DNA of 64,000 nucleotides from positions 32,001-96,000 of the IMG/VR virus record IMGVR_UViG_3300021255_000109; one strand, given 5' to 3'. Made by a program: the position numbers and the translations under genes. Shown in pieces: positions 18,145-47,029 of the stretch; positions within the stretch are counted from its first letter, which is position 1; each line of letters opens with the position of its first letter. The DNA comes from a virus. Taxonomy: Duplodnaviria > Caudoviricetes. The notes beneath the pieces are model-generated. The model was given only the letters and a program-made list of their open reading frames with translations. It had not been told where the DNA came from and made no database searches.

Positions 18145-19518
18145 TCAATTGCTTTCGGTAGTGTCATTGTTTACCTCTTCTGCTTCTTCGATATCAGGAG
18201 CTTCAGCGTCAGCCTTAGCGATACCTTCAAGGCATTTAAAACTAAAGTTCTTATGCTTGTAAGCAGTAAACTTTGGTTTATTTACGATACGAATGACTAC
18301 GCCTTCGCGCACATGACTTAATCCGATAGGGTCGGGCCCATCATAATAGCGCTCAGCAATCATACGAACATATTCTCCATAAGACATATCTGTGGTTTCG
18401 CCGGTTTCAAGGTTAATACTTACGGGTTTATTCTTTTCAGTGATATAACCCTGCCAGAAAACTGGTACATACTGACATCCAATCTGCTCGCAACGATAGC
18501 GCATATAATCAGGAGTATATTCTACGATATCTCCATCTTCATTAGTCATAGTCATACGGTAAACATAAAACTTAGACTGGCCAGGCTCGCACCCATAAGA
18601 GAAAGTTGTAGTTTTGCCATATTTCTTTATAAACTCTTTATCTTTTGTCTTTGAGTTATCTACAGACCCCATAATTGGAGTACCAGTATCGGTAAATCCA
18701 ACTACTTCATAGTAAACCTCTTCACCTTTATGAAGCTTTCCTTTGAAGAAGTCTGCGTGCGGCTGGCGGAAATGATTAGACCCATAGAAACCAGATTTGA
18801 AGTCGTTCAGTACAGTTCTACGAGTACCAGTCACATAGCCCCAATCATAGATAGGAGTTCCTTCTTTTCTGGTAATTCTATCCCAAAGAGTTCTTTTATA
18901 TCCCTGGAATACTGGCAGGTATCCAGTACGCTGAGAAGTTCCGTGCATTTTCAAAGTGATTTCAATTAAATCACCCGCTTTGAAAGCATCCAGATTGTAA
19001 GCAAGCTGCTCAGTATCAGCGTGCTCAACAAACAGAGGCGCCAGTGGCACCTTGCGCTTTCTTACGCGATTTCCCTCTTTACTATTGCCAGCAACTTTAA
19101 CTGGTTTCATTGGAATGTACTTACGACAAATTTCGTGGCCATTGATAACAGTAATAGCTTCACCCGGAGTAAAAGACCCAGCACTATCTCCAAGGTAGTT
19201 AAAGCAAGAGATAGGAAGATATAATCCATCAGATTTCTCGCCACGGAGTTTAATTGTAGTTACATTTCTCTTATCAGGGTCCATATAACCACCAATATTA
19301 GCGCCATTCTCATCTTTCTTTCTTACCAGATTATTAGCCTCACAGAATTCTGTAGAAAGCTGCAGGTCAGTTGGAAAATAGATACCGATGTCTCCTACCG
19401 CAACATCCAAAGAAACACAAGTATCATTACCAAAAAAAGTAGCAATCTGAAGCTTATCTGCATTAGAATGCGGGCGAAGATGTTCAACTTTTACAATATA
19501 TCCACAATGCTCACTCAT
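18145..19518 (-). CDS. RNA ligase (Rnl2/DRB0094-like)
   Basis: N-terminal PHSNADKL OB-like domain, LRGEKSDG, KMHGTS, YYEVVG, REGVV, KHK. Confidence 0.85.
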   Translation of the reverse strand: MSEHCGYIVKVEHLRPHSNADKLQIATFFGNDTCVSLDVAVGDIGIYFPTDLQLSTEFCEANNLVRKKDENGANIGGYMDPDKRNVTTIKLRGEKSDGLYLPISCFNYLGDSAGSFTPGEAITVINGHEICRKYIPMKPVKVAGNSKEGNRVRKRKVPLAPLFVEHADTEQLAYNLDAFKAGDLIEITLKMHGTSQRTGYLPVFQGYKRTLWDRITRKEGTPIYDWGYVTGTRRTVLNDFKSGFYGSNHFRQPHADFFKGKLHKGEEVYYEVVGFTDTGTPIMGSVDNSKTKDKEFIKKYGKTTTFSYGCEPGQSKFYVYRMTMTNEDGDIVEYTPDYMRYRCEQIGCQYVPVFWQGYITEKNKPVSINLETGETTDMSYGEYVRMIAERYYDGPDPIGLSHVREGVVIRIVNKPKFTAYKHKNFSFKCLEGIAKADAEAPDIEEAEEVNNDTTESN

Positions 19519-20365
19519 TCTTATCCTCCTTCGGCATAATTATTTTCCATGTTTTATCCATATACAAGGTATTTCCGTTGATAGCTTTTAAAATTCTATT
19601 TTTGATTTTAGTTTTATCAGCTCGCTCTCTATCTGCAACATTTATATGATTGACCGCATATGAAACAGCTTTATGCAATCCCTGAAAACTCTTAATAAGA
19701 GTTGTACCAGATTTGTTATACATTTCAACAACGCACTCTGACCAGTCTGGTTTATCAGTTTGAGTGGTTATTGTTGGCTGAGCAGAAGCGACTGTTTCAT
19801 ATTCTGGGAAAGGGTGTCCTGTTACAATCTCTTCATTTGATACATGCTCAAAAACTTCTTTTAAAAAACGTGCATCTTCAAGAGCATCATGAGTCTGTAT
19901 TACAGACTCTTCATTTCTATAATAAGCAACAAGCTTAATTAAAGAAATATGTTTAGCCAAGCCAAAATGAGCTTTTACAATATTGCTATAATCATACAGA
20001 TTCATAGCAATTAGTGATAAAGCGGCCTGAGCAGCAAAAGAATTTGTTTTAGATAAATTCTTTCTAATAAATTTACTATCAGATGTGCCATAACAATAAA
20101 ATGTTACAATGTCATCTTCTGTATGTGCACATAACCACTGAAAAAATTTACTAAACACCTCATCTGAGGTTGGTGCGGTCTGACGCACCTCATCTGTAAT
20201 ACCTGTTAAAGAAGTGATAAAGCTGGTGATTTTCTTCTCAGACCGCACATAACTATGGAACTCATCACCCTTTTCGCTTATACATCCAATAGAAATAATC
20301 TCATTGGAAAATTGCGTTGCTTCGAAGTCAATAAAAAAATTCATAATTTTCTCCTTTTTAGTCAA
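19511..20365 (-). CDS. DEDDh 3'-5' exonuclease
   Basis: IDFEAT, EIISIG, LTGIT, HDALEDA. Confidence 0.85.
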   Translation of the reverse strand: MTKKEKIMNFFIDFEATQFSNEIISIGCISEKGDEFHSYVRSEKKITSFITSLTGITDEVRQTAPTSDEVFSKFFQWLCAHTEDDIVTFYCYGTSDSKFIRKNLSKTNSFAAQAALSLIAMNLYDYSNIVKAHFGLAKHISLIKLVAYYRNEESVIQTHDALEDARFLKEVFEHVSNEEIVTGHPFPEYETVASAQPTITTQTDKPDWSECVVEMYNKSGTTLIKSFQGLHKAVSYAVNHINVADRERADKTKIKNRILKAINGNTLYMDKTWKIIMPKEDKNE

Positions 20366-21218
20366 GATACTCAGCCAGTTTCTTACTGCGGATAGGACTT
20401 CTCAGCTTACGCATTGCCTTCTCTTCTATCTGTCTAATACGCTCACGAGTCACATTGTATACCTTACCAATTTCCTCAAGGGTCATCGGTCTTACGGCAT
20501 CAATGCCAAAGCGCATTTTGATAACTTCAGCTTCACGCGGCTCAAGTGTCGCCAGAGCGGCCATAATCTGATTATGACGCTCTTCCTTGACAATGTTATT
20601 GTAAGGAGATTCAAACTTATCGTCAGCTACAAGGTCTCCCATTGTAGCATCTTCATCATCGCCCACCGGAACATCAAGGGACAGAGTCTCACGAGAAAAA
20701 TCCCAGATTTCATATACCTTGGATGCGTCAATTTTCATAAACTTTGCAATCTGCTCGGCAGTAGGAGCCTGCCCCAGCTTCTGCGTCAGTTCAGAAGTTG
20801 CCTTCTTAACTTTACTCGCGAGGTCAATCATATGTACTGGAATACGGATTGCTTTATTCTGTTCAGCTAGTGCACGACCGATTGCCTGACGAATCCAATA
20901 AGTTGCGTATGTTGAAAATCTAAAGCCTCTGGAGGGGTCAAACTTCTCTACTGCTTTCATCAGCCCAATAGAGCCTTCCTGCACAAGGTCAGCAAAACTC
21001 AAAGACGTACCATTGTACTTTCTGGCGATAGAAAGCACCAAACGCAAATTGCGAGTAATTAATTCTTCACGAGCGGTATTATCTCCATGCTGGACTCTTG
21101 CAACAAGAGCCTTTTCCTCTTCCTCAGAAAGAAGTTCATAATCTCCAAACTGACGAACCATTAATTTAACAGAATCAATGCTTACATACTTATCTTCGTT
21201 AATCACAACTTCTTTCAT
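20358..21218 (-). CDS. RpoD/SigA-like RNA polymerase sigma factor
   Basis: NLRLV.SIA, DLVQEG.IGL, FSTYATYWIRQAI, TLEEIG...VTRERIRQIE. Confidence 0.95.
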   Translation of the reverse strand: MKEVVINEDKYVSIDSVKLMVRQFGDYELLSEEEEKALVARVQHGDNTAREELITRNLRLVLSIARKYNGTSLSFADLVQEGSIGLMKAVEKFDPSRGFRFSTYATYWIRQAIGRALAEQNKAIRIPVHMIDLASKVKKATSELTQKLGQAPTAEQIAKFMKIDASKVYEIWDFSRETLSLDVPVGDDEDATMGDLVADDKFESPYNNIVKEERHNQIMAALATLEPREAEVIKMRFGIDAVRPMTLEEIGKVYNVTRERIRQIEEKAMRKLRSPIRSKKLAEYLD

Positions 21219-21276
21219 AAGAACCCCCTCTTAAAATTCTTTTCTCAACTTTTCTATAAATATTATACCAAAAATT

Positions 21277-22164
21277 TTACAAAAAATCAAAAGCGGACTC
21301 TATAGTGCGCTTTGCGTTCTCTTCATTCCAATCAGGATAAGTAGTAAAATTTAGTTTTAATCCAAAAGGTAATCTAATACCATTATCCCACTTCTCCCAA
21401 CGGTCAGCTATCTCATCTAATGTAGCAAAGTTATTCATAAACATCTCTACATGTGGACGGATAACATTATCTTCATGGAAATGTCCGAATAACCACGCAT
21501 ATTTCCAGTTAATTTCATTTTTTAAATTGTCCAACCATTTTTCCATAGTGTTATCTACGGTATGCTGGTCAACATTTGTTAAAAATAAATTAAAAGGTTG
21601 CCAGGTATATGGGCAAGTATGAGACAGTACAAAATCAAAAGACATATTTTGTACATTAGCTTCAATGTTAAACATCTCCTGTGGTGTTAATTGCTCATCT
21701 TTAAACCATCCAGTCCACTGTGTTTCAGGGCCAATACCTCGTGCAGCTGCTATGGCTAATCTATAATTTTTATCCACAGAATATGCACCACCAATTACAA
21801 GTGTAGAATATCCATTGAAATTATAGATGCCGCCATCTTTTAAATAACGGATATTTGGATACTCTTTTTCATACATTACATATCCGTTAATAAGCTCATC
21901 ATAATCTTCTAAGATAGAAGGCAGGTTTTCCGGACGCTCTTCATGGTTCCCGCGCACACAATAAACCAGGCAATTTAGACTTTGCACATATTCTTTATTT
22001 TTTCTATCAGTTTTATTGAGATAGAAATTAAAGCCAACATCGCCAAGGATAATCAATGCATGAGAAGTAATGTCATATAGTTCGCAAAAACGCTAAATAT
22101 CTTCTGTATGACCGTGAATATCGCCGGTTATAACAAAATGTTTAATTTTTCCATTCCATTTCAT
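21277..22164 (-). CDS. Metallophosphoesterase (in-frame TAG at 22093)
   Basis: First motif GDIHG lies upstream of the TAG; LGD, GNHE, GGAYSVD, HTCP, GHFH lie downstream. Confidence 0.88.
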
Positions 22165-22166
22165 AT

Positions 22167-22388
22167 TTATTCTCCAAATGTAAGTTTAACTTGTTCTCCA
22201 TTATATTCAAAACGTTTTGGGTCAATATATTCTATACTAAATAATTTATACTATCCCGGACGAAAAGTAATTTTATTAGTAGTTTTATCTCTCGGTATTT
22301 CTAAAGTAATTTTTACCCATAAAAAAGTATTGGCTAATGGAGATACAAAAGTATAATCATCTAACCAATATCCTATCCATTCTAACAT
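22167..22388 (-). CDS. Hypothetical protein (in-frame TAG at 22251)
   Basis: Fills the gap between neighbours exactly when TAG is read through. Confidence 0.5.
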
Positions 22389-22389
22389 G

Positions 22390-22764
22390 TTAACAATCTA
22401 CTCCATTTCTACGGAGAACTGCAAGCGTATTTTGGATTCCTACTGGATTCATACTAATTAGATACCATCTTAATTTTGTAAAATCTTGAGGGTAATGCAC
22501 TTCCATCCAATCAAGAAATTTAATAAAATCTCCTCCATCTTTTACGTAATCTCCAGCATCATGGTCGATATATATATCTACCAATCTAACATCTTTATCA
22601 TTTAAATCATTGCCCCAAAGAGTATATGCTTTAATAGCTTCATGTACACTCTTGCACCAAATAACACGTTCATTAGCATAATGATTTGGAAGATTTTCTG
22701 CAGGGTCTCTTACATCATCTATCCAAAGCACTATATGTAAAAAGTCATCACGATTCATTTTCAT
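22390..22764 (-). CDS. Cyclic-phosphate-processing receiver-like domain protein
   Basis: LWIDDVRDP, IDHDAGD, SMNPVG motifs. Confidence 0.75.
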   Translation of the reverse strand: MKMNRDDFLHIVLWIDDVRDPAENLPNHYANERVIWCKSVHEAIKAYTLWGNDLNDKDVRLVDIYIDHDAGDYVKDGGDFIKFLDWMEVHYPQDFTKLRWYLISMNPVGIQNTLAVLRRNGVDC

Positions 22765-25020: not shown

Positions 25021-26577
25021 TCACTTAATGCAAGCGTAACGCTCAGTATTAAGCTTATCCATCATGAGTTCATATCCGGTCTTACCAGACATGATGGTCT
25101 CAAAGATAGAAGGAGAGAAGCCAGATACGAAGCTTACACGGCCCTGTCCGAGCATCGGAATGTTATTCTGGCGAGCATCAACATTCCAGAAAATCAGATG
25201 AGGCAGTTCAAGTCCGTAACGTGCCCACTTCTTAGCGATACCCTCCATCACAGTCTCGCAGTTGCGAGAATTGATGCTAGAAGTATAACGCCAACCAGAA
25301 GTTGCAGAGTCGAACTCCATATCAGAGATGATAAGGACATTCTTCGGGATATCTTCCTTCTTTACACCAGGACGAGTTGCAGTATCAAGTAGAAGGTCGA
25401 AGGTTGCTTCGATATTAGTGTTCTCACACAGATTAGTGCGATAAATTCTTTCGACCTTATCACAGAAATCTACTCCCTCAGTACGGATGAGCTGAGGACG
25501 AGAAGAGAAACTAATATAGTTATTGGCGAACGGGCCATTGTTATGCTCTGCGCAATACAGACCCAGAGAAATTGCTACGTTGATAGGAGCAGAAGCGCTA
25601 TCACCAGTCATAGAACCAGAGGTATCTACAACAGCAATACCATTGAAAGTTGCATTATTGAAATAATCGGTCAGATTATCCCAATACTTGTTAACCATCA
25701 GACGATTGGTATCGTACAGGTCAACATTGCTCTTATTATAATCATTAAAGCTATACCAACTTCTGTACTGCGGTTTCATGACCTTTACAGCCTCAGCTAC
25801 GCACTCATAAGGATACAGCGCCTTAGCGTTTACCTTAGTAGTGGCGTCCTGTGCGAACTCAGCGTAAGTCTTTACATTTTCGTTCTTCTGGCGCTCAATG
25901 TCATGACGAGCAAAAGCGTTCTTGTAAATCATTCCAGCACGAGAAGGAATCTTATCGAACTCAATCTCGTCCCAGCGATTCTCAGACATTAGTCTCTCCA
26001 GAACGTTGATGCGGGCGCGCAGATTAGAAAGAATCTTTCTATACTGGCGAGAAGTCATGCCCATATGCTGGCGAGTCAGTGCTCCCAGTCTGCGGCTTTC
26101 AGCACTTGAAGTGTTCTCGGACTTCAACCACTTAGCAAGTAAAGACGGAGTCTTGCAGCTGACATCAAGTGCAAGCTGATGAGTCATCAGCGCGAATGCG
26201 TCACCTTCCAGCGGAGTCCCTACGAACTCATACAAGTCATCCCAACGACCAAACTCAGGTACATGGATGAGATTGCGCTTTGCAGCATCTGCGTCCGCAT
26301 TAGCAAGCCAATGCATACACACACGGAAGAATCTACGCTCTCCCTGGCCTCCACGCACATCACGGATATAGAACAGGCACTTTAGTGCATACTCCGGGTT
26401 TTCCGCATATGCGTTCTTAAAGAGGTTAATTACATCTGCGTCACTGCGATTACGATAAGCTGCGCCCATCGCAAACATATCCAGTAAATCAGAACGAGTA
26501 GTCTTATGGGTCACACCACCATTCTCAGTGAGAGTGAAGTTAGTAGCATCATTCAGACCGGACATAAAAGTATTCAT
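25021..26577 (-). CDS. DUF2828-family helical + vWA protein (Ro60/TROVE-like architecture)
   Basis: TENG, RDVRGGQGERRFF, GRWDDL, AKWLKSE, vWA DTSGSM, SDMEFD, FWNV, SGFS. Confidence 0.85.
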   Translation of the reverse strand: MNTFMSGLNDATNFTLTENGGVTHKTTRSDLLDMFAMGAAYRNRSDADVINLFKNAYAENPEYALKCLFYIRDVRGGQGERRFFRVCMHWLANADADAAKRNLIHVPEFGRWDDLYEFVGTPLEGDAFALMTHQLALDVSCKTPSLLAKWLKSENTSSAESRRLGALTRQHMGMTSRQYRKILSNLRARINVLERLMSENRWDEIEFDKIPSRAGMIYKNAFARHDIERQKNENVKTYAEFAQDATTKVNAKALYPYECVAEAVKVMKPQYRSWYSFNDYNKSNVDLYDTNRLMVNKYWDNLTDYFNNATFNGIAVVDTSGSMTGDSASAPINVAISLGLYCAEHNNGPFANNYISFSSRPQLIRTEGVDFCDKVERIYRTNLCENTNIEATFDLLLDTATRPGVKKEDIPKNVLIISDMEFDSATSGWRYTSSINSRNCETVMEGIAKKWARYGLELPHLIFWNVDARQNNIPMLGQGRVSFVSGFSPSIFETIMSGKTGYELMMDKLNTERYACIK

Positions 26578-28462: not shown

Positions 28463-28470
28463 TCAAAGAG

Positions 28471-28543
28471 AGCGTCTGACGAGAATCGAACTCGCATCTA
28501 ATGCTTGGAAGGCACTTGTGTTAATCCATTACACCACAAACGC
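28471..28543 (-). tRNA. tRNA-Gly(TCC)
   Basis: Cloverleaf; loop CTTCCAA. Confidence 0.9.
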
Positions 28544-28961: not shown

Positions 28962-29228
28962 TCTTTATCTTACATATATATTATATCAAAATTTTTATAA
29001 AAAATCAATTAAAAATCGTCATAATTACTATTTTGTAACTTTTGTTTTTCTTTACGCTTTTGTCTATCTTTCTGTTCAATATTAGATTCTTTGCATAAAT
29101 GGCAATTGCCGCAATTTCTTCTATTATGACAAAACCAACAATAATCATTATCCCAAAAGAACCATTTGGGAGGACTAGGCAATGGTTTTCTTTCACTTTT
29201 ACCCATCTTCAAAGCTCCTTTTATACAG

Positions 29229-29316
29229 CGGGGGTATTGGGATTCGAACCCAAACCGAGGCCCTCAGAAGGCTGGAGTTTTAGAGACTCCTGTGCTGACC
29301 GTTACACTATACCCCT
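29229..29316 (-). tRNA. Amber suppressor tRNA (anticodon CTA), probably Gln
   Basis: GGAGT-CTCTAAA-ACTCC; A1/C72 mismatch, G2-C71, G3-C70, G73; ~20-nt variable region. Confidence 0.9.
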
Positions 29317-30506: not shown

Positions 30507-30707
30507 TTAATTATAACATTCTTTTGTGAAAAAACAATACATAACGTCTACATTATATTTATTTTTTGCTAAAATTGCATTAACTAATTTATATCCTTGC
30601 TCACCCATTTGAGTTAAAGTATTAGGTAAAACATCTGTTGCATAGTTACTGATTACTACAACTGTATTATCATATATTACTTCTTTTTTATTCATGAATT
30701 TCCTCAT
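30507..30707 (-). CDS. Small hypothetical protein
   Basis: L..MG.QGY.LV....Y.FF.K pattern. Confidence 0.55.
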   Translation of the reverse strand: MRKFMNKKEVIYDNTVVVISNYATDVLPNTLTQMGEQGYKLVNAILAKNKYNVDVMYCFFTKECYN

Positions 30708-30709
30708 AG

Positions 30710-31008
30710 TGGACCTGAGGGGAGTCGAACCCCTGTCCGAAATTTATACTTACTATAATTGTTTACGCTGTTTTTTTAAATTTGCTCCACCATCTTATTT
30801 TTAGTGCTAAGAATAAGAAAACTTAAAGTGACAGTTGTTTTCGATCCTCAACAGTTACTACTGACATCTTACTGTGTTTTGGAGGCTGAGCCAAATCAGG
30901 CTGCCATTTGATATTGATATCTTGCGTTTATATTTAGATTTTAGTGATTACGTCACTACACGAGCGCAATTATAATTTTCTAAACCCCGTCGAAACCATT
31001 ACAAGCCC
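30710..31008 (-). ncRNA. ssrA: tmRNA
   Basis: 5' GGGCTTGTAATGGTTTCGACGGGG, 3' GACAGGGGTTCGACTCCCCTCAGGTCCA; resume ATAAAC-GCA; tag (A)ARYQYQMAA-TGA. Confidence 0.9.
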
Positions 31009-31674: not shown

Positions 31675-31691
31675 ATGTAACATAAAAAAAT

Positions 31692-32312
31692 GAATTTGAA
31701 AAAATGTGTGAACCTTCGCTCTACATCCTATATTTCTCGTTTATTAGACTACTGAGGAGATAAGTCTGAGCCTAAGACCCGTCGGTCTTAAACTTCTTAC
31801 CCCACCCGTTTTCCACGGGCACAGGTTCTGCACCTTTAATCTCAGAAGGGATTGCTTACCCTCAACTTTCACCCACCATTCAGATATTTTTATAATAATG
31901 ACCTCAACATTATTCATTCATTATAAATAGAAATTAAAAAGTCTTTGCCTTGGGCTACTTGTGCGTTGACCTTGTCTTATAGTCTTATTACTAAGACATC
32001 ATGGCAAACTTCCTTATTAGCATTTCCTTGGTTTGTGCCAGGCGGCCAGCCTAACACCTAACAAGGATTATTCTCCCACTGGGAGCGTCTATTGCGGAAG
32101 CGACAAGACACCGTCCTAACTTGAGAAATATATTTTGCGCTAACTACCCCCGACACCTTACGTTCGTAAGGTATCATTCTCTTGTCACCAAGAGAATGAT
32201 TCATCTTCATCCTGGCTATCGTCAGGGTAGATATAGTCGACACCTAAGTGTGGTAGTTACCTCAGCACAATGGTATTTGCTCTGCACTGAGTTACACATT
32301 TTTTCAAAGTTC
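31692..32312 (-). ncRNA. Large structured ncRNA, ROOL-like (~620 nt)
   Basis: Terminal pairing TTTGAAAAAATGTGT/ACACATTTTTTCAAA, many hairpins, segments CAAGTAGCCCAA, ATCTGAATGGTGGGTGAAAG, GCTCAGACTTATCTCC recalled as ROOL-like; tRNA-cluster context. Confidence 0.65.
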
Positions 32313-32530
32313 AATAGGAATCAGTCAAAATCAGCATCGCCACGAGAAGGCTTCCTATATGATGCCATGCGGTTTTGAGGTTAACCGTAAACCTTGATAG
32401 TGTGGCTCTCGCCCAAAGGAATACCCGGCCGCCGCACTCCACTCTTTGAATGATGAACTCTTCTAATCCTACATCCTATCATATGTCTATTGGACTTACA
32501 TACAATTTCTAACTGTAAAGCCGAGACAAA

Positions 32531-32611: not shown

Positions 32612-32734
32612 CAAGGCTGCTTACTTTTTGGAGTTATTAATCTTCCAATTGATTTACAATTGCTAAGCAAAAGACAGGACTCGAACCTGCAACGCATAAC
32701 TTGGAATAAAGCTACTATTTGCTGTCACAGCCTT
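32612..32734 (-). ncRNA. Element E3: YrlA-topology permuted tRNA mimic
   Basis: AAGGCTG-TGACAGCAA ... GTTAT, T-arm GCAGG-TTCGAGT-CCTGT, looped acceptor, D-arm AATC-AATTGGAA-GATT, ATAAC ... CAGCCTTG. Confidence 0.72.
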
Positions 32735-32765
32735 AAATATATTATAATGTTTAATTAGTTTTCAA

Positions 32766-32887
32766 CAAGACACTTTAGAAAAATGATTATCAGTCATTCG
32801 CGTCAACCATTGCGCCAATTTGCCTAAGGTGGCAAATATCGGATTTGAACCGATACTCTCTAAAAAGAGATTTGCTGTATGTGTCTT
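32766..32887 (-). ncRNA. Element E4: circularly permuted tRNA-Ile(GAT)-like module
   Basis: AAGACAC-ATACAGCAA ... T-arm, ATTTGCC-ACCTTA-GGCAAAT, D-arm, AATGA-CTGATAA-TCATT ... GTGTCTTG. Confidence 0.78.
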
Positions 32888-32893
32888 TTTTAT

Positions 32894-33268
32894 TTATTCT
32901 TGAATACAATACTTTCTTACAAAATGACCATAAGACATACGATTACACATCTTATTTAACTCCTCAGTAGAATACTGACCTGCTACTAATTCATCAACAA
33001 GCGCCCAATAACAATCGACGTCGTCTCTATAGACGTCATCGTACATCTCTTCAATCTCATCTTCAGTCATATCGTCGTCGATATATTCTTTTGCCTCTTC
33101 ATCTAAAGCATTATAAATCTCAGCATAAGACTGAATAACATCAAAGGCTAAGCTAATAGCATTCTCTCTGGCTTCCTCTTCGTTGTCTGCATCAATTACT
33201 TCCATCTCATACATACCGTGTAAACCACCATACATCTGGTCACAGCCATAAACTACATATCTAGCCAT
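32894..33268 (-). CDS. Acidic hypothetical protein
   Basis: ORF behind promoter; YGGLHG motif. Confidence 0.65.
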   Translation of the reverse strand: MARYVVYGCDQMYGGLHGMYEMEVIDADNEEEARENAISLAFDVIQSYAEIYNALDEEAKEYIDDDMTEDEIEEMYDDVYRDDVDCYWALVDELVAGQYSTEELNKMCNRMSYGHFVRKYCIQE

Positions 33269-33359
33269 TGATTATAATTTCCTTTCTTTTTTTATTTTAC
33301 ATAAATATTATACCAAATTTTTTCTAAAAAATCAATTTAAACTTTTTTATTTGTGATAG

Positions 33360-33438: not shown

Positions 33439-33995
33439 TAGGAGAGATGGGAATCGAACCCATGACCTCAGGTTTGATTCCAAGATGTTATTCATTAATT
33501 ATTTTATTCACCACCTTTTCTAATTCATATTCAGTAGCAAATGTAATTCCTCTAATTTGTCCATTCTTAGGCGGAATAAATCTTAATCTTTTTATCCCAG
33601 AACTACAACATTCATCTACTGGAATTAAATAAGTTTTACCTTCATAAGAAGTCATAAAATAATCAATTTGTTCTTTTGTATAGGCATGTTTTACAAACTT
33701 TCCATTTCTCGTAGTTTTATTTGCGGTATTAAATTCTATATATCCGTTGTCTATATGTGAAGTATTAGCTGTTTTAACTTGAATTTTATAAAATTTATTA
33801 TTTATTTCAACTACGAAATCATAACGTTCACAATCTCCATATGGAGTTAAAACATTATAACCTAATTTTAAAAATGATAACATACATTCTACTTCTGTAA
33901 TATTACCTTTTTGTTTTGACATTAACATATTGTTAATAATCAATGAATAATTCTTTGAATCAGACCTGCACTCTAACCTTCTGAGCTACTCTCCT
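33439..33995 (-). tRNA. tRNA-Ile(GAT) split by a 483-nt insertion (exons 33959-33995 and 33439-33475)
   Basis: 5' half ends CAGGT-CT-GAT, 3' half begins AA-ACCTG; perfect acceptor AGGAGAG/CTCTCCT, A73. Confidence 0.85.
33488..33928 (-). CDS. PD-(D/E)XK homing-type endonuclease (I-Ssp6803I-like family) inside tRNA-Ile
   Basis: KG..TE, P.GD..RYD, KIQVKT, Y...IDYF, YLIP. Confidence 0.85.
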   Translation of the reverse strand: MLMSKQKGNITEVECMLSFLKLGYNVLTPYGDCERYDFVVEINNKFYKIQVKTANTSHIDNGYIEFNTANKTTRNGKFVKHAYTKEQIDYFMTSYEGKTYLIPVDECCSSGIKRLRFIPPKNGQIRGITFATEYELEKVVNKIINE

Positions 33996-34272: not shown

Positions 34273-34391
34273 TGGGGGACAGAGGACTCGAACCTCCAAA
34301 CACCGGCTCCCTAAGCTTTGTAAAAATTGCTGACACGGTTTTTATTCAAGACCAGACATAACGGCGGCTTTTCCTATTTGCCTAATCCCCC
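34273..34391 (-). ncRNA. Element E6: tRNA-like RNA with the permuted stem/CAGCAA motif in place of the anticodon loop
   Basis: Acceptor GGGGGA/TCCCCC, D- and T-arms intact; anticodon arm holds GGTCTTG-AATA-AAAACC-GTGTCAGCAA. Confidence 0.7.
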
Positions 34392-35085: not shown

Positions 35086-36261
35086 TTAAATTAAGTATTT
35101 ATAAGCAAAGCTTGAACTGTAATAATTTTTAGCCTTATTAAACTCAATCTCTGCGATTTCAAAACTGTTTAAAAAAGCTTTAAGAGCATCTTTTAACTTC
35201 TTTTGTTCTTCGTTATCATCACTCAAATATTCATAATCATCATCCCAGCCAAGTTCAACCTTAGAAGGGTCAATATGATAACCATTTTCGTCAATGATAA
35301 TGTCACGAGTGTAAAATCTGACCTGAACATTATTGCAATAACGAGCAAACTCAGCAGGAAAAGCTTTCTTATCAAAATTCAGCCATTCATAATTATTTCG
35401 GTTATCAAACATATCAAGGTCTATATTCTGAGAACTTGTTGCAACTAAGCCATTTGTAAAAATAACTTTCATTGATAATACAAGATAACGCTCTCTCTCA
35501 ATATTCAAATCTAACATGGTCTCAGACAAATCATATCCCTGATTTAGTTCAAATGCAATAGCCCTAAGTACATCATATGTAAATGAAGACATACCACTAA
35601 GAGCTACAATTTTATCAATATACTGACGAGCATCTCCAACTAGATTATCATTCATATACTCTCTTACTTCGTCTCCTGTTGGAGTGCTAAGCATAAAATG
35701 ATAATGAAATCTTCCTGGTCTATTCAATAGGAAAGGACTTAATCCTCTGGTATCATTACAAGTAATAATATATAATTTCTTACCATCATCAATACCATCG
35801 AATAATGATAAAAGATTATCTTGCGGTGAATAATCACTGTCTTTATCAGTTTTAAAAGTTTTTTCGAACTCATCAAAAAGCACAATACATTCTTGATGAA
35901 TAGAAGAAATAAAATCTTCAATACCAGGCGCAGGAGTATCAACAATTAAAAGCGGTAAATTTGATTTCTTACCAGCTTCTGCTAATAAACGTGCAAACAT
36001 TGACTTACCAACACCTTTTGGTCCTGATAAGATAACACCCATATTACGATTGAAATGGCTAAAAGTATTCATAACCTTATTAACCTTTTCAGCATACGGT
36101 CCATAAACTTTTTCTCTTGTAACGAGGTCATTATGCTTAGATAGGTAATAACCTGATAACTTACTAAATTCTACTCGATATGTATCTGCGGGGAGCGACT
36201 TATATGTTTGCACATCCTCGCCATACACCATAAACTTATCGCCTGCATTAACTATATTCAT
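35086..36261 (-). CDS. AAA+ ATPase
   Basis: GPKGVGKS, LFDEFEK, TCN, NRPGRF. Confidence 0.88.
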   Translation of the reverse strand: MNIVNAGDKFMVYGEDVQTYKSLPADTYRVEFSKLSGYYLSKHNDLVTREKVYGPYAEKVNKVMNTFSHFNRNMGVILSGPKGVGKSMFARLLAEAGKKSNLPLLIVDTPAPGIEDFISSIHQECIVLFDEFEKTFKTDKDSDYSPQDNLLSLFDGIDDGKKLYIITCNDTRGLSPFLLNRPGRFHYHFMLSTPTGDEVREYMNDNLVGDARQYIDKIVALSGMSSFTYDVLRAIAFELNQGYDLSETMLDLNIERERYLVLSMKVIFTNGLVATSSQNIDLDMFDNRNNYEWLNFDKKAFPAEFARYCNNVQVRFYTRDIIIDENGYHIDPSKVELGWDDDYEYLSDDNEEQKKLKDALKAFLNSFEIAEIEFNKAKNYYSSSFAYKYLI

Positions 36262-38504: not shown

Positions 38505-38627
38505 CAAGTCGCTTCGTTTTTTGGTGTACAAAATGGGACTCGAACCCACAATTTTTAAATCCTAAATTTAACGCCATTCCTATTTGGCTATTCGTACGAT
38601 TAACGTAACATTTGCTGTATGCGACTT
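38505..38627 (-). ncRNA. Element E7 enclosing a complete tRNA-Leu(TAG)-like gene with CCA (38522-38597)
   Basis: AAGTCGC-ATACAGCAA ... cloverleaf with TTAAA-TTTAGGA-TTTAA ... ACCA ... GCGACTTG. Confidence 0.75.
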
Positions 38628-40310: not shown

Positions 40311-40365
40311 AAATTGACCTACCCTGGTACGCATTGTTAAGAGGCGTGATAGGTACTGATATAAT

Positions 40366-45415: not shown

Positions 45416-47029
45416 TTAAACTACCCATGACATCACCGCCCCATATACTCCATTTAAAATAGAAATTTCATAAGTCCTATTAGTTTCAATTTCAAACCAT
45501 TCTGGCATTTTTACTGTATTTGGCAAAGTTAATACAGTAGGAGTAGAACCAGAAGTAAACAATATGTTACAAATACCAGTAGCAGATGGAGTAAAAGATA
45601 ATGTTAATACTGTGCCACAAATATAACGGTAGTTTCCTTGTGCGGTAATTACTGGATCTGTGCCTGTAACTGTCTATTCAGTTATTCCGCTACCACTTGA
45701 TGATGATCCACTATTAACCATCTAATCTACATATCCTTTAGTAGCAACATCCATATTATTAGTAGGTCCAATACCAACAGTTAATTTACCTGCTAATACT
45801 TCATTACCATTCCAATCTAAAGTTCTTGCATTAGAACGATTTATAATAGTATTATCTTGCGGATCTTGTATTCCATTACCAACAATTTCAATATAAGTTC
45901 CTTTATTATTCGCCTCTGCTGTTGTAGCATTTGTTTCTATTACATTATATTCTCCAAAAACAAACTAAGAGCGTTTTGCCGCTTCAGTTCCATAGCCTTG
46001 ACTATGAGAAAATCTTCCGCTAGCAACAGTTTGAATACCTTCAGCATGTGCGCCAAGACCTGTAGCTTGACTTTGGCCTCCTTCTGCATGCGTATAATAA
46101 CCACTAGCAATAGTATATACCCCTTCTGCGTGTGCAGATTGACCACTCGCTGTTGTATGTTCTCCTTCTGCATGAGATGCTAAACCGCTAGCTTCAGAAT
46201 AATCACCTTCTGCATGAGATGCTGCGCCACTTGCTGTTGTCTAATAACCACTTGTAAATGAATTTTCTCCTTCTGCAATAGTTAATTCTCCAATCGCAAT
46301 AGCTCCATATTCTCTTGCGACATTATTAAGTCCAATAGCTATTGCATTATCTTCAGAAACTGTATTACCTTCACCAATAGCAACAGTAGCTACTCTTGAT
46401 TCTAATTTATTCGCCACACCAATAGAATAGCCAAAATATTTGCTTGTTTCACCATCTCTAGCTATTTGTAAAGGAGTATCTGTATATCCATATATTAAAG
46501 ATTTTGGCAATTCAACTTTTGTATTATTTATCTATTCTACTAAAAACTTATATGTGCCAGCTTCACTTGTTAAAATATCAAGCGTTCCATCATCATCTGT
46601 CTCAACAATTATAAATGGACAATTATCAGTTTTATATGGTATACTAGCGTCAATGTCAATATATAGATTTAAGTTCCCTAAATAAGAATATAATCGCGTT
46701 GAACACCATGTCTTACCATCTAAAATATACTGTTGTGATTCATTCGTTGTAGCATTAGTAAATGTGACTCGAAATTGATAATAGGTTGGCCTTTGAGTTT
46801 TAGTAACAGTTGCTTTTGGACTTTTATATCCTTCTGTTACCGCAGTTGTTACTGTAAATTCTCCTCCATAAACTGTAGTATATGTACTATTAATAATACC
46901 TGCATTACCTATTGCGCTTTTATCAACTTTTATATTATCAATAATATTTACAGCAGTTTCTAAAGTATCCAACTAATCTTTTTTTAATCGAGTTATACCA
47001 TTTGCATCTAAAAATTTTTTAGTTGGCAT
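45416..47029 (-). CDS. Fibre/adhesin-like protein with SHAEG beta-roll repeats (at least 6 in-frame TAGs)
   Basis: MPTKKFLDANG; (S/A)HAEG..T.ASG repeats; S*FVFGEYN; IVGNG...RSNARTLDW. Confidence 0.82.

What the first reader, a model, noticed from the sequence alone, without database searches (positions are those of the whole stretch)
32612..32734. E3 has the YrlA topology (tRNA opened at the anticodon loop)
Order 5'->3': handle, GTTAT (3' anticodon strand), variable GCGTT, T-arm GCAGG-TTCGAGT-CCTGT, imperfect acceptor closed by a short loop (TTGC-TTA-GCAA), D-arm AATC-AATTGGAA-GATT, ATAAC (5' anticodon strand), handle. T-acceptor-D order with the protein-binding stem extending the anticodon stem is the known YrlA layout. 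This is the strongest link between the motif family and Y RNAs.
Basis: partly seen in the sequence, partly recalled or inferred. Interest (0 to 1): 0.8.

Follow-up and report, generated by a model that had tools for sequence, protein, structure and literature searches.

The report
Permuted tRNA mimic on Ro-like handle
A 123-base RNA gene in a large phage is a glycine-tRNA look-alike written in rotated order and clamped by a conserved "handle" that in many phages lies beside the gene of a Ro60-shaped protein, so it is most likely a Y-RNA-like partner of that protein, not a working tRNA.

Summary
On the minus strand of 32612-32734 the order is handle, anticodon-stem 3' strand, variable loop, T arm, closed acceptor hairpin, D arm, anticodon-stem 5' strand, handle.

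A covariance model built from 20 such elements of other phages, with E3 left out, finds E3 as the best hit in the window (80.5 bits, E 7e-15). In the 21-member alignment 24 of 28 pairs covary, so homologues keep the permuted order.

E3 is a permuted tRNA-Gly(UCC)-like RNA opened between nucleotides 31 and 32. It still carries the seven anticodon-loop bases.

Rfam YrlA aligns in the same register but scores 26.4 bits against a cut-off of 69. E3 lacks the GNCGAA box, and the genome has no Pfam TROVE gene.

The same strand does carry a DUF2828/DUF7788 gene (25021-26577). Its AlphaFold model matches, over its full length, only Ro60 structures. The same handle RNAs flank this gene family in 44 of 47 large phage records and in 5 of 5 cultured phages checked.

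Verdict: E3 has the YrlA layout but belongs to a separate, apparently undescribed Y-like RNA family paired with a divergent Ro60. Binding is inferred, not shown.

This scan had already met the same system on other DNA (at least 24 genomes).

The parts
32612..32734 (-). E3: the whole 123-nt permuted tRNA-mimic RNA with its handle
   Evidence: Read. R1 (built without E3) scores it 80.5 bits, E 7e-15. YrlA scores 26.4 bits in the same register.
32728..32734 (-). Handle stem, 5' strand (AAGGCUG)
   Evidence: Pairs with 32613-32619. This helix is 100% paired in 21 homologues and 4 of its 7 pairs covary.
32717..32727 (-). Conserved single-stranded box UGACAGCAAAU; ACAGCAA is invariant
   Evidence: Invariant columns in A1. 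Consensus of 193 elements. The box is also present in Listeria, Bacillus, Mycobacterium, Escherichia and Campylobacter phages.
32701..32707 (-). Retained anticodon loop AUUCCAA (anticodon UCC), no longer joined to nt 31
   Evidence: Aligns with the loop of the phage's tRNA-Gly(UCC) and tRNA-Gly(GCC).
32691..32700 (-). Anticodon-stem 3' strand (39-43) and 5-nt variable loop ending in U48
   Evidence: Five Watson-Crick pairs with 32633-32637. The outer three pairs covary in the family. The A15:U48 Levitt pair is present.
32674..32690 (-). T arm
   Evidence: This helix is 100% paired across 21 homologues.
32657..32673 (-). Acceptor-like hairpin: G1-C72 and C2-G71, two U.U mismatches, loop UUA beginning with U73, no CCA
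   Evidence: The helix is 85% paired and all 7 pairs covary in the family.
32639..32654 (-). D arm with G18 G19
32633..32637 (-). Anticodon-stem 5' strand (27-31)
32613..32619 (-). Handle stem, 3' strand, followed by the conserved G at 32612
25021..26577 (-). Gene of the Ro60-fold protein (DUF2828 + DUF7788, MIDAS DxSxS), the proposed protein partner
   Evidence: Pfam. AF2 pLDDT 92.4. Foldseek: the top 13 hits are all Ro60/TROVE structures over the full length.
32766..32887 (-). E4, the neighbouring paralogue 32 nt upstream: permuted tRNA-Ile(GAU)-like with an intact anticodon arm
   Evidence: R1 scores it 65.6 bits. Sequence read.

Best explanation
E3 is a non-coding RNA made from a tRNA-Gly(UCC)-like gene by circular permutation. 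The acceptor end is sealed into a hairpin. The chain is opened between nucleotides 31 and 32, and the new 5' and 3' ends are clamped by a 7-bp helix next to a single-stranded ACAGCAA box (the handle). It keeps the tRNA elbow (T and D arms, Levitt pair) and so should fold into a tRNA-like L shape. The handle is the docking site for the phage's Ro60-fold protein (25021-26577). E3 therefore works like a YrlA-type Y RNA, with one end on the Ro-like ring and a tRNA-shaped module that engages tRNA-recognising proteins (processing, modification, repair or cleavage enzymes). It is probably part of a phage tRNA surveillance or repair particle. Shown here: the sequence anatomy, conservation and covariation of the fold, the Ro60 fold of the protein model, and the gene-RNA linkage. 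Inferred: binding, expression as a discrete RNA, and what the tRNA module recruits.
For: Anatomy.

Family: 21 permuted members from other phages have 90% of cells paired, 24 of 28 pairs with double changes, and 0 of 500 shuffles reaching that. The Levitt pair is A:U 11 times and G:C 5 times. The leave-one-out model scores E3 at 80.5 bits. A cultured-phage member (Bacillus PBC2) scores 89.3 bits.

Protein: DUF2828+DUF7788, invariant MIDAS residues, pLDDT 92.4. Full-length structural matches are only to Ro60 proteins, including Thermus phage phiLo Ro60, and phiLo Ro60 binds two Y-like RNAs encoded upstream of its gene (PMC12135203).

Linkage: DUF2828 is present in 44 of 47 handle-bearing records, against 705 of 50,697 GenBank phages. 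The nearest handle lies within 2 kb of the gene in 20 of 33 records (3.9 expected), and 119 of 124 handles are on the gene's strand. Handles abut the gene in 5 of 5 cultured phages from four host phyla.

Context: RNA end-healing and sealing genes lie downstream of the Ro-like gene (cREC_REC, phosphoesterase, RNase T-like, RNA-ligase-like). RtcB is nearby in Listeria phage List-36 and Thg1 in a relative.

The same fold also occurs unpermuted: a tRNA at 34273-34391 carries the handle inserted at 29/30. That argues the tRNA-plus-handle composite is the functional unit.

A normal tRNA-Gly(UCC) already exists at 28470-28543.
Against: There is no binding or expression data. E3 lies 6 kb from the Ro-like gene, not beside it; the nearest handle RNA is 2.3 kb away. 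Ro-like genes and handles both sit in tRNA arrays, so part of the linkage could be shared neighbourhood. The YrlA score is far below the cut-off, and the GNCGAA box thought to contact Ro60 is absent. Single-sequence thermodynamics prefers another fold. No sequence orthologue of E3 itself was found. The acceptor stem is imperfect, so some decay cannot be excluded.
Confidence: 0.6

Rival explanations
1. A decoy or bait that does not need the Ro-like protein. The tRNA-shaped module (and the anticodon-stem-loop cargo of sister elements) soaks up host tRNA-targeting enzymes such as anticodon nucleases. The handle only stabilises or marks the ends of the RNA.
For: Many sister elements carry bare anticodon-stem-loop mimics with loops of Lys(UUU), Asn(GUU), Ile(GAU) and Thr(GGU) type. 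E3 keeps the Gly anticodon loop. The elements sit in the phage tRNA array.
Against: It does not explain the invariant ACAGCAA box or its tight, same-strand linkage with a Ro60-fold gene across distant phages. E3's anticodon loop is interrupted and would be a poor nuclease substrate.
Confidence: 0.15
2. The handle is an RNA-processing signal of the tRNA operon, a cleavage or end-protection structure for a host or phage RNase. E3 is then just an odd tRNA-derived passenger.
For: E3 is probably co-transcribed with ORF 32894-33268, E4 and tRNA-Gln from the strong repeated promoter at 33335-33307. One handle encloses a complete tRNA (38505-38627).
Against: A 7-bp stem is too short for RNase III. The permuted tRNA body is itself under selection (covariation, Levitt pair). 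Handles occur next to the Ro-like gene even where few tRNAs are near, as in Faith1.
Confidence: 0.1
3. A true circularly permuted tRNA gene. The handle is removed, nt 31 and 32 are ligated into a circle, and RNase P plus 3' trimming and CCA addition open the acceptor loop to give a working tRNA-Gly(UCC), as in Cyanidioschyzon merolae.
For: Gly identity elements are kept: G1-C72, C2-G71, U73, C35 C36 (the identity rules are from my own knowledge). Nine of 21 homologues have NCCA exactly at the start of the acceptor loop together with 7-bp acceptor stems. An RNA-ligase-like gene is present.
Against: E3 has two U.U mismatches in the acceptor and no CCA. The phage already has tRNA-Gly(UCC). There is no bulge-helix-bulge motif and no RtcB. 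Break points differ between members (29/30, 31/32, variable loop). The same handle carries cargo that could never become a tRNA.
Confidence: 0.08
4. A decaying by-product of tandem tRNA duplication with no function.
For: Imperfect acceptor stem. No sequence orthologue was found. The MFE favours a non-tRNA fold.
Against: All tertiary-contact positions, five perfect anticodon-stem pairs and an intact handle are kept. E3 scores 80.5 bits against a model of independent homologues.
Confidence: 0.05

Closest known systems
YrlA-type bacterial and mycobacteriophage Y RNAs with Ro60/Rsr (Rfam RF02553; Chen et al. 2014, PMC4201824)
   Same: A terminal 5'/3' stem with a conserved 5'-strand motif. A tRNA-like module in the order T arm, closed acceptor-like hairpin, D arm. 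Levitt-pair covariation. Encoded on the same strand as, and near, a Ro60-fold gene, with RNA-repair genes nearby.
   Different: The conserved box is ACAGCAA, not GNCGAA. The partner is DUF2828/DUF7788, which Pfam TROVE does not detect. The YrlA model scores only 26-43 bits (cut-off 69). There are many paralogues per genome, scattered in a tRNA array. E3 keeps the anticodon-loop bases. The cargo varies (anticodon stem-loops, whole tRNAs, permuted tRNAs).
Thermus phage phiLo Ro60 with Yrl1/Yrl2 (PMC12135203; PDB 9KOP, 9L5Y)
   Same: A phage-encoded Ro60-fold protein with partner RNAs encoded next to its gene. It is the best structural match of the window's protein.
   Different: 17% sequence identity. 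The phiLo RNAs were identified by a CGAA motif and are not described there as permuted tRNAs.
Circularly permuted tRNA genes of Cyanidioschyzon merolae (own knowledge; reviewed in PMC4090602)
   Same: The 3' half of the tRNA is encoded upstream of the 5' half, with the acceptor ends joined by a short linker.
   Different: Those are matured through a bulge-helix-bulge splice into working tRNAs. E3 has no such motif, has a flawed acceptor stem, and shares its end clamp with non-tRNA cargo.
Two-piece (circularly permuted) tmRNA genes of some bacteria (own knowledge)
   Same: A tRNA-like RNA whose gene order is rotated, functional as a permuted fold.
   Different: A different family and function. 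The window's own tmRNA (30707-31008) is of the ordinary one-piece kind.

Membership tests
YrlA (Rfam RF02553; Chen et al. 2014) | tRNA-like module in the order T arm, acceptor-like hairpin, D arm, closed by a 5'/3' stem | tested here: met
   The YrlA model aligns arm for arm. The structure is supported by covariation in 21 homologues.
YrlA (Rfam RF02553; Chen et al. 2014) | Score at or above the curated gathering threshold (69 bits) | tested here: not met
   E3 scores 26.4 bits. Homologues score 27.7-42.7. No match reaches the cut-off in the 11 homologue loci, or in four further loci beside Ro-like genes (Faith1, EC6, CPX, List-36).
YrlA (Rfam RF02553; Chen et al. 2014) | GNCGAA(N0-1)G motif near the 5' end | tested here: not met
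   Absent from 32708-32734. The conserved box there is UGACAGCAAAU.
YrlA (Rfam RF02553; Chen et al. 2014) | Encoded within about 4 kb of a TROVE-domain Ro60 gene, on the same strand | tested here: inconclusive
   There is no PF05731 match in the genome. A Ro60-fold DUF2828 gene lies 6.0 kb away on the same strand. Sister handles lie within 2 kb of that gene family in 20 of 33 records.
YrlA (Rfam RF02553; Chen et al. 2014) | tRNA tertiary contacts possible, with a covarying Levitt pair | tested here: met
   A15:U48 in E3. In the family the pair is A:U 11 times and G:C 5 times out of 21.
YrlA (Rfam RF02553; Chen et al. 2014) | Bound by Ro60/Rsr in vivo; carries tRNA modifications | not testable with these tools
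   Needs RIP or EMSA and modification mapping.
ACAGCAA-handle RNAs beside phage DUF2828 genes (no published name found) | A covarying terminal helix of about 7 bp followed on the 5' strand by a single-stranded ACAGCAA box | tested here: met
ACAGCAA-handle RNAs beside phage DUF2828 genes (no published name found) | Recognised by a model built from members of other genomes | tested here: met
   R1 without E3 scores it 80.5 bits, E 7e-15, the top hit of the window.
ACAGCAA-handle RNAs beside phage DUF2828 genes (no published name found) | The genome encodes the DUF2828/DUF7788 Ro60-fold protein on the same strand | tested here: met
Functional circularly permuted tRNA gene | 3' half upstream of 5' half, with the anticodon retained | tested here: met
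Functional circularly permuted tRNA gene | A splice signal at the termini (bulge-helix-bulge) and a sound 7-bp acceptor stem with a usable 3' end | tested here: not met
   The termini form a plain 7-bp helix with a one-sided loop. The acceptor has two U.U mismatches and a 3-nt loop without CCA.

The most novel reading that the evidence does not exclude
E3 and its sisters are baits of a phage tRNA-defence particle. The Ro60-like ring holds the handle while the cargo imitates a specific host or phage tRNA; for E3 that is tRNA-Gly opened at the 5' edge of its anticodon loop, the look of a nuclease-nicked tRNA. The particle would either capture host anticodon nucleases or bring the neighbouring end-healing and sealing enzymes (phosphoesterase, RNase T-like, RNA-ligase-like) to broken tRNAs. 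Members with NCCA in the acceptor loop would be opened by RNase P into two-piece, possibly chargeable, tRNA mimics.
Probability: 0.15. Interest if true: 0.85.

Novelty: new variant of a known kind. Interest (0 to 1): 0.62.

Why it matters
The function of the tRNA-like domain of Y RNAs is still unknown. Here the same layout appears on a different handle, paired with a divergent Ro60-fold protein. That protein family has homologues in 705 GenBank phage records, and the handle RNAs were found in all five cultured phages checked, including tractable ones: Felixounavirus of E. coli, P100-like Listeria phages and the mycobacteriophage Faith1.

The cargo is modular: anticodon stem-loops, whole tRNAs, and tRNAs permuted at different points. 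That natural variation, together with easy phage genetics, makes it testable what a Ro particle does with a tRNA mimic. It may also tie Ro-type particles to the fight over tRNA between phages and host anticodon nucleases. For annotation, these elements are currently missed or called pseudo-tRNAs.

Tried and rejected
- Pfam TROVE, RtcB and T4 Rnl1 searches of the whole phage genome found nothing. RNA_ligase gave only sub-threshold hits.
- A sequence search of the Ro-like protein against PDB chains gave nothing useful; only the fold search did.
- blastn of the region against GenBank phages gave only a tRNA-sized hit.
- A search for a sequence orthologue of E3 found none, neither by blastn over all fetched loci nor by an exact-pattern scan of IMG/VR. 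The element class is conserved, but this copy is not traceable.
- Single-sequence folding does not recover the tRNA-like fold, so I rely on comparative evidence.
- E3 having its own promoter: one weak match (32765-32736) is badly placed relative to the RNA's start, and the match count is not above shuffles. Rejected as evidence.
- The reading of cmscan's other hit (32666-32823), a tRNA with an 87-nt insertion, was rejected. It splices E4's D and anticodon arms to E3's T arm across two separate handle-bounded units.
- The TCCAA repeat on both sides of the anticodon stem, as a duplication scar, was rejected. The two copies are offset by 2 nt in tRNA numbering and are only 5 nt long.
- Literature searches for DUF2828, Ro-like phage proteins with Y RNA, and permuted tRNA in phages found no description of this RNA family. 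The supplements of Chen et al. are not held, and the Annual Review PMC10870794 is not held.

Full report
**Setting.** The window is bases 32001-96000 of a complete 180.8-kb phage genome with direct terminal repeats. Between about 27 and 48 kb of the window the minus strand carries 33 tRNA genes, a tmRNA (30707-31008) and a ROOL RNA (31691-32315). E3 (32612-32734) lies in this array. It sits 32 nt downstream of a sister element, E4, and 8 nt upstream of tRNA-Gln.

**Observation.** Read on the minus strand, E3 has, in order:
- a 7-nt strand AAGGCUG;
- an 11-nt box UGACAGCAAAU;
- a 9-nt linker;
- AUUCCAA;
- GUUAU;
- GCGUU;
- a T arm (GCAGG, UUCGAGU, CCUGU);
- a hairpin CUUUUGC-UUA-GCAAUUG;
- UA;
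- a D arm (AAUC, AAUUGGAA, GAUU);
- A;
- AUAAC;
- a 13-nt linker;
- CAGCCUU and a final G.

In tRNA numbering this is 32-38, 39-43, 44-48, 49-65, 66-73, then 1-7, 8-9, 10-25, 26 and 27-31. It aligns with the loop of the phage's own tRNA-Gly(UCC) and tRNA-Gly(GCC). G1-C72, C2-G71, U73 and C35 C36 also fit glycine identity (identity rules from my own knowledge). E3 is thus a tRNA-Gly(UCC)-like gene, circularly permuted and opened between nucleotides 31 and 32.

**Is it more than chance?** The same end structure occurs at least seven times in this genome, all in the array and all on the minus strand: a 7-bp helix of variable, complementary sequence, then AUACAGCAAAU.

An exact-pattern scan of IMG/VR returned 119 matches. 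In 85 of them the exact reverse complement of the 7-nt strand followed within 320 nt. Over 227 loci I collected 219 distinct elements:
- 166 have no T arm, and many carry an anticodon-stem-loop look-alike;
- 23 carry a T arm late, as in an ordinary tRNA;
- 30 carry it early, as in a permuted tRNA.

Twenty-one permuted members align well. On that alignment the handle helix and T arm are 100% paired, the acceptor hairpin 85%, the D arm 88% and the anticodon stem 76%. Double changes occur in 24 of 28 pairs, and none of 500 shuffles or slid registers comes near. The Levitt pair 15:48 is A:U 11 times and G:C 5 times.

A covariance model built from the 20 foreign members, without E3, finds E3 as the best hit in the window at 80.5 bits, E 7e-15. 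It also finds an E3-type element in the cultured Bacillus phage PBC2 at 89.3 bits.

**Relation to YrlA.** Chen et al. 2014 define YrlA by four features:
- a terminal stem with a GNCGAA box;
- conserved T and D stem-loops with an acceptor-like hairpin between them;
- possible tRNA tertiary contacts, including a covarying Levitt pair;
- a position within 4 kb of a TROVE Ro60 gene on the same strand.

Rfam's YrlA model aligns to E3 end to end in exactly this register, but at 26.4 bits against a cut-off of 69. Better-preserved homologues reach 40.8 and 42.7 bits. No match reaches the cut-off in any of 15 loci scanned at gathering threshold. The GNCGAA box is absent, and the genome has no TROVE match. 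E3 works like YrlA in layout but is not a member of that family.

**The protein.** It carries DUF2828 and DUF7788. Using 108 diverse homologues (the MIDAS residues D318, S320 and S322 are invariant), AlphaFold gave a model with pLDDT 92.4 and pTM 0.92. Its only full-length structural matches are Ro60 proteins:
- Thermus phage phiLo Ro60 (E 2e-8);
- Xenopus Ro (TM 0.57-0.59);
- Deinococcus Rsr;
- human Ro60.

The next matches are lone vWA domains. Homologues at 35% identity are annotated "Ro-like RNA binding protein" in mycobacteriophages. PhiLo Ro60 is known to bind two Y-like RNAs encoded just upstream of its gene (PMC12135203).

**Linkage.**
- DUF2828 is present in 44 of 47 large IMG/VR records reached through handle matches, and in 27 of 28 that are at least 90% complete. 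In GenBank phages the figure is 705 of 50,697.
- The strict handle pattern occurs in 45 of 48 records, strand-biased and clustered, with the reversed control near zero.
- The nearest handle lies within 2 kb of the gene in 20 of 33 records (3.9 expected, maximum 12 in 2000 simulations). It is on the gene's strand in all 33 and upstream in 28. Overall, 119 of 124 handles share the gene's strand.
- In five of five cultured phages checked, handle RNAs lie within about 1.5 kb of the gene on the same strand. These were Bacillus PBC2, Listeria List-36, Mycobacterium Faith1, Escherichia EC6 and Campylobacter CPX. Faith1 and EC6 each include a permuted tRNA-like member.
- ACAGCAA is constant, while the closing helix differs between lineages.

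In this genome the nearest handle RNA is 2.3 kb from the gene, and E3 is 6 kb from it.

**Context.** Downstream of the Ro-like gene lie a cyclic-phosphate-processing receiver domain, a phosphoesterase, an RNase T-like exonuclease and an RNA-ligase-like protein. Relatives add Thg1, and Listeria phage List-36 has RtcB. This is the company that Ro60 keeps in bacterial RNA-repair operons.

**One fold, several gene orders.** A normally ordered tRNA at 34273-34391 carries the handle inserted between nucleotides 29 and 30 of its anticodon stem, with the handle helix closed by a loop. Several permuted homologues are broken at this same 29/30 point and keep whole anticodon loops: Asp GUC, Pro UGG, Lys UUU, Tyr GUA and Gly GCC (read). 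E4 is opened at the variable loop. One handle encloses a whole tRNA. The tRNA-plus-handle composite, not a spliced product, therefore looks like the selected unit.

Nine of 21 permuted members have NCCA exactly where the acceptor loop begins. This recalls M. smegmatis YrlA, which is cut by RNase P and receives CCA. E3 lacks this feature and has two U.U mismatches.

**Interpretation.** The best-supported reading (0.6) is that E3 is a Y-RNA-like partner of the phage Ro60-fold protein. The handle docks on the protein, and the tRNA-Gly-shaped module engages tRNA-recognising factors within a tRNA surveillance or repair particle. Binding and expression are inferred.

The rivals are a protein-independent decoy (0.15), a processing signal (0.1), a truly maturing permuted tRNA gene (0.08) and a decaying duplicate (0.05).

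The weak points are the absence of any biochemical data, E3's distance from the gene, a thermodynamic preference for another fold in single-sequence prediction, and the lack of a traceable orthologue of this particular copy.

**Novelty.** Phage Ro60 with neighbouring Y-like RNAs is known (Chen et al. 2014; PMC12135203). I found no description of the ACAGCAA handle family, its DUF2828 partner or its permuted-tRNA cargo in the literature held here. After I had run my own tests, a look-up showed that this scan had already reported the same system in at least 24 other genomes. E3 is one more member. It is distinguished by the 31/32 break with a retained Gly anticodon loop.

Noticed in passing
window 26867-47463, 14 copies (e.g. 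33278-33347): A 70-nt repeat on the minus strand holding a strong promoter-like site (TTGATT, 17 nt, TG-TATAAT) recurs 14 times through the tRNA array. It probably marks the phage's own early or middle promoters, driving small transcription units of ORFs, tRNAs and handle RNAs.
   Followed up: partly
window 29228-29316 (-): A tRNA with anticodon CUA (called 'Pyl' by ARAGORN) is a TAG suppressor with a long variable arm. The phage may read TAG as an amino acid.
   Followed up: no
window 40317-40353 (-): An abiF RNA match just over its cut-off (39.1 against 37 bits), directly upstream of tRNA-Asn.
   Followed up: no
window 18145-22764 (-): An RNA end-healing and sealing gene set lies downstream of the Ro-like gene: cREC_REC (22390-22764), Metallophos (21277-22056), a sigma-70-type factor (20358-21218), an RNase T-like exonuclease (19511-20365) and an RNA-ligase-like protein with a PHA02142 OB fold (18145-19518).
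   Followed up: partly
window 33488-33943 (-) and 35086-36261 (-): A PD-(D/E)XK endonuclease (PDDEXK_5) and an AAA+ ATPase lie inside the tRNA array. PDDEXK_5 genes recur at the same place in relatives (L231, L232, L233). The ATPase could be a MoxR-type partner of the vWA/MIDAS domain; that is a guess.
   Followed up: no
L022 10084-10167, L051 2050-2137, L153 187-276: RNAs of about 85 nt in related phage tRNA arrays match only positions 436-595 of the OLE RNA model, at 53 bits (cut-off 50).
   Followed up: no
window 46058-46302: Five to six tandem 42-nt (14-codon) repeats overlap ORFs 45857-46183 (+), 45940-46173 (-) and 46241-46510 (-), suggesting a repetitive protein segment.
   Followed up: no
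L228 8661-8927 (Listeria phage List-36) and L236 6472-6728 (Mycobacterium phage Faith1): Three tandem handle RNAs lie in unannotated gaps directly beside the Ro-like gene of well-studied phage groups. RtcB lies 1.3 kb downstream in List-36.
   Followed up: partly
L234 12691-13521: A Thg1-like (3'-5' tRNA repair polymerase) gene and an RlaP-like gene follow the Ro-like gene in a relative whose protein is 74% identical.
   Followed up: no
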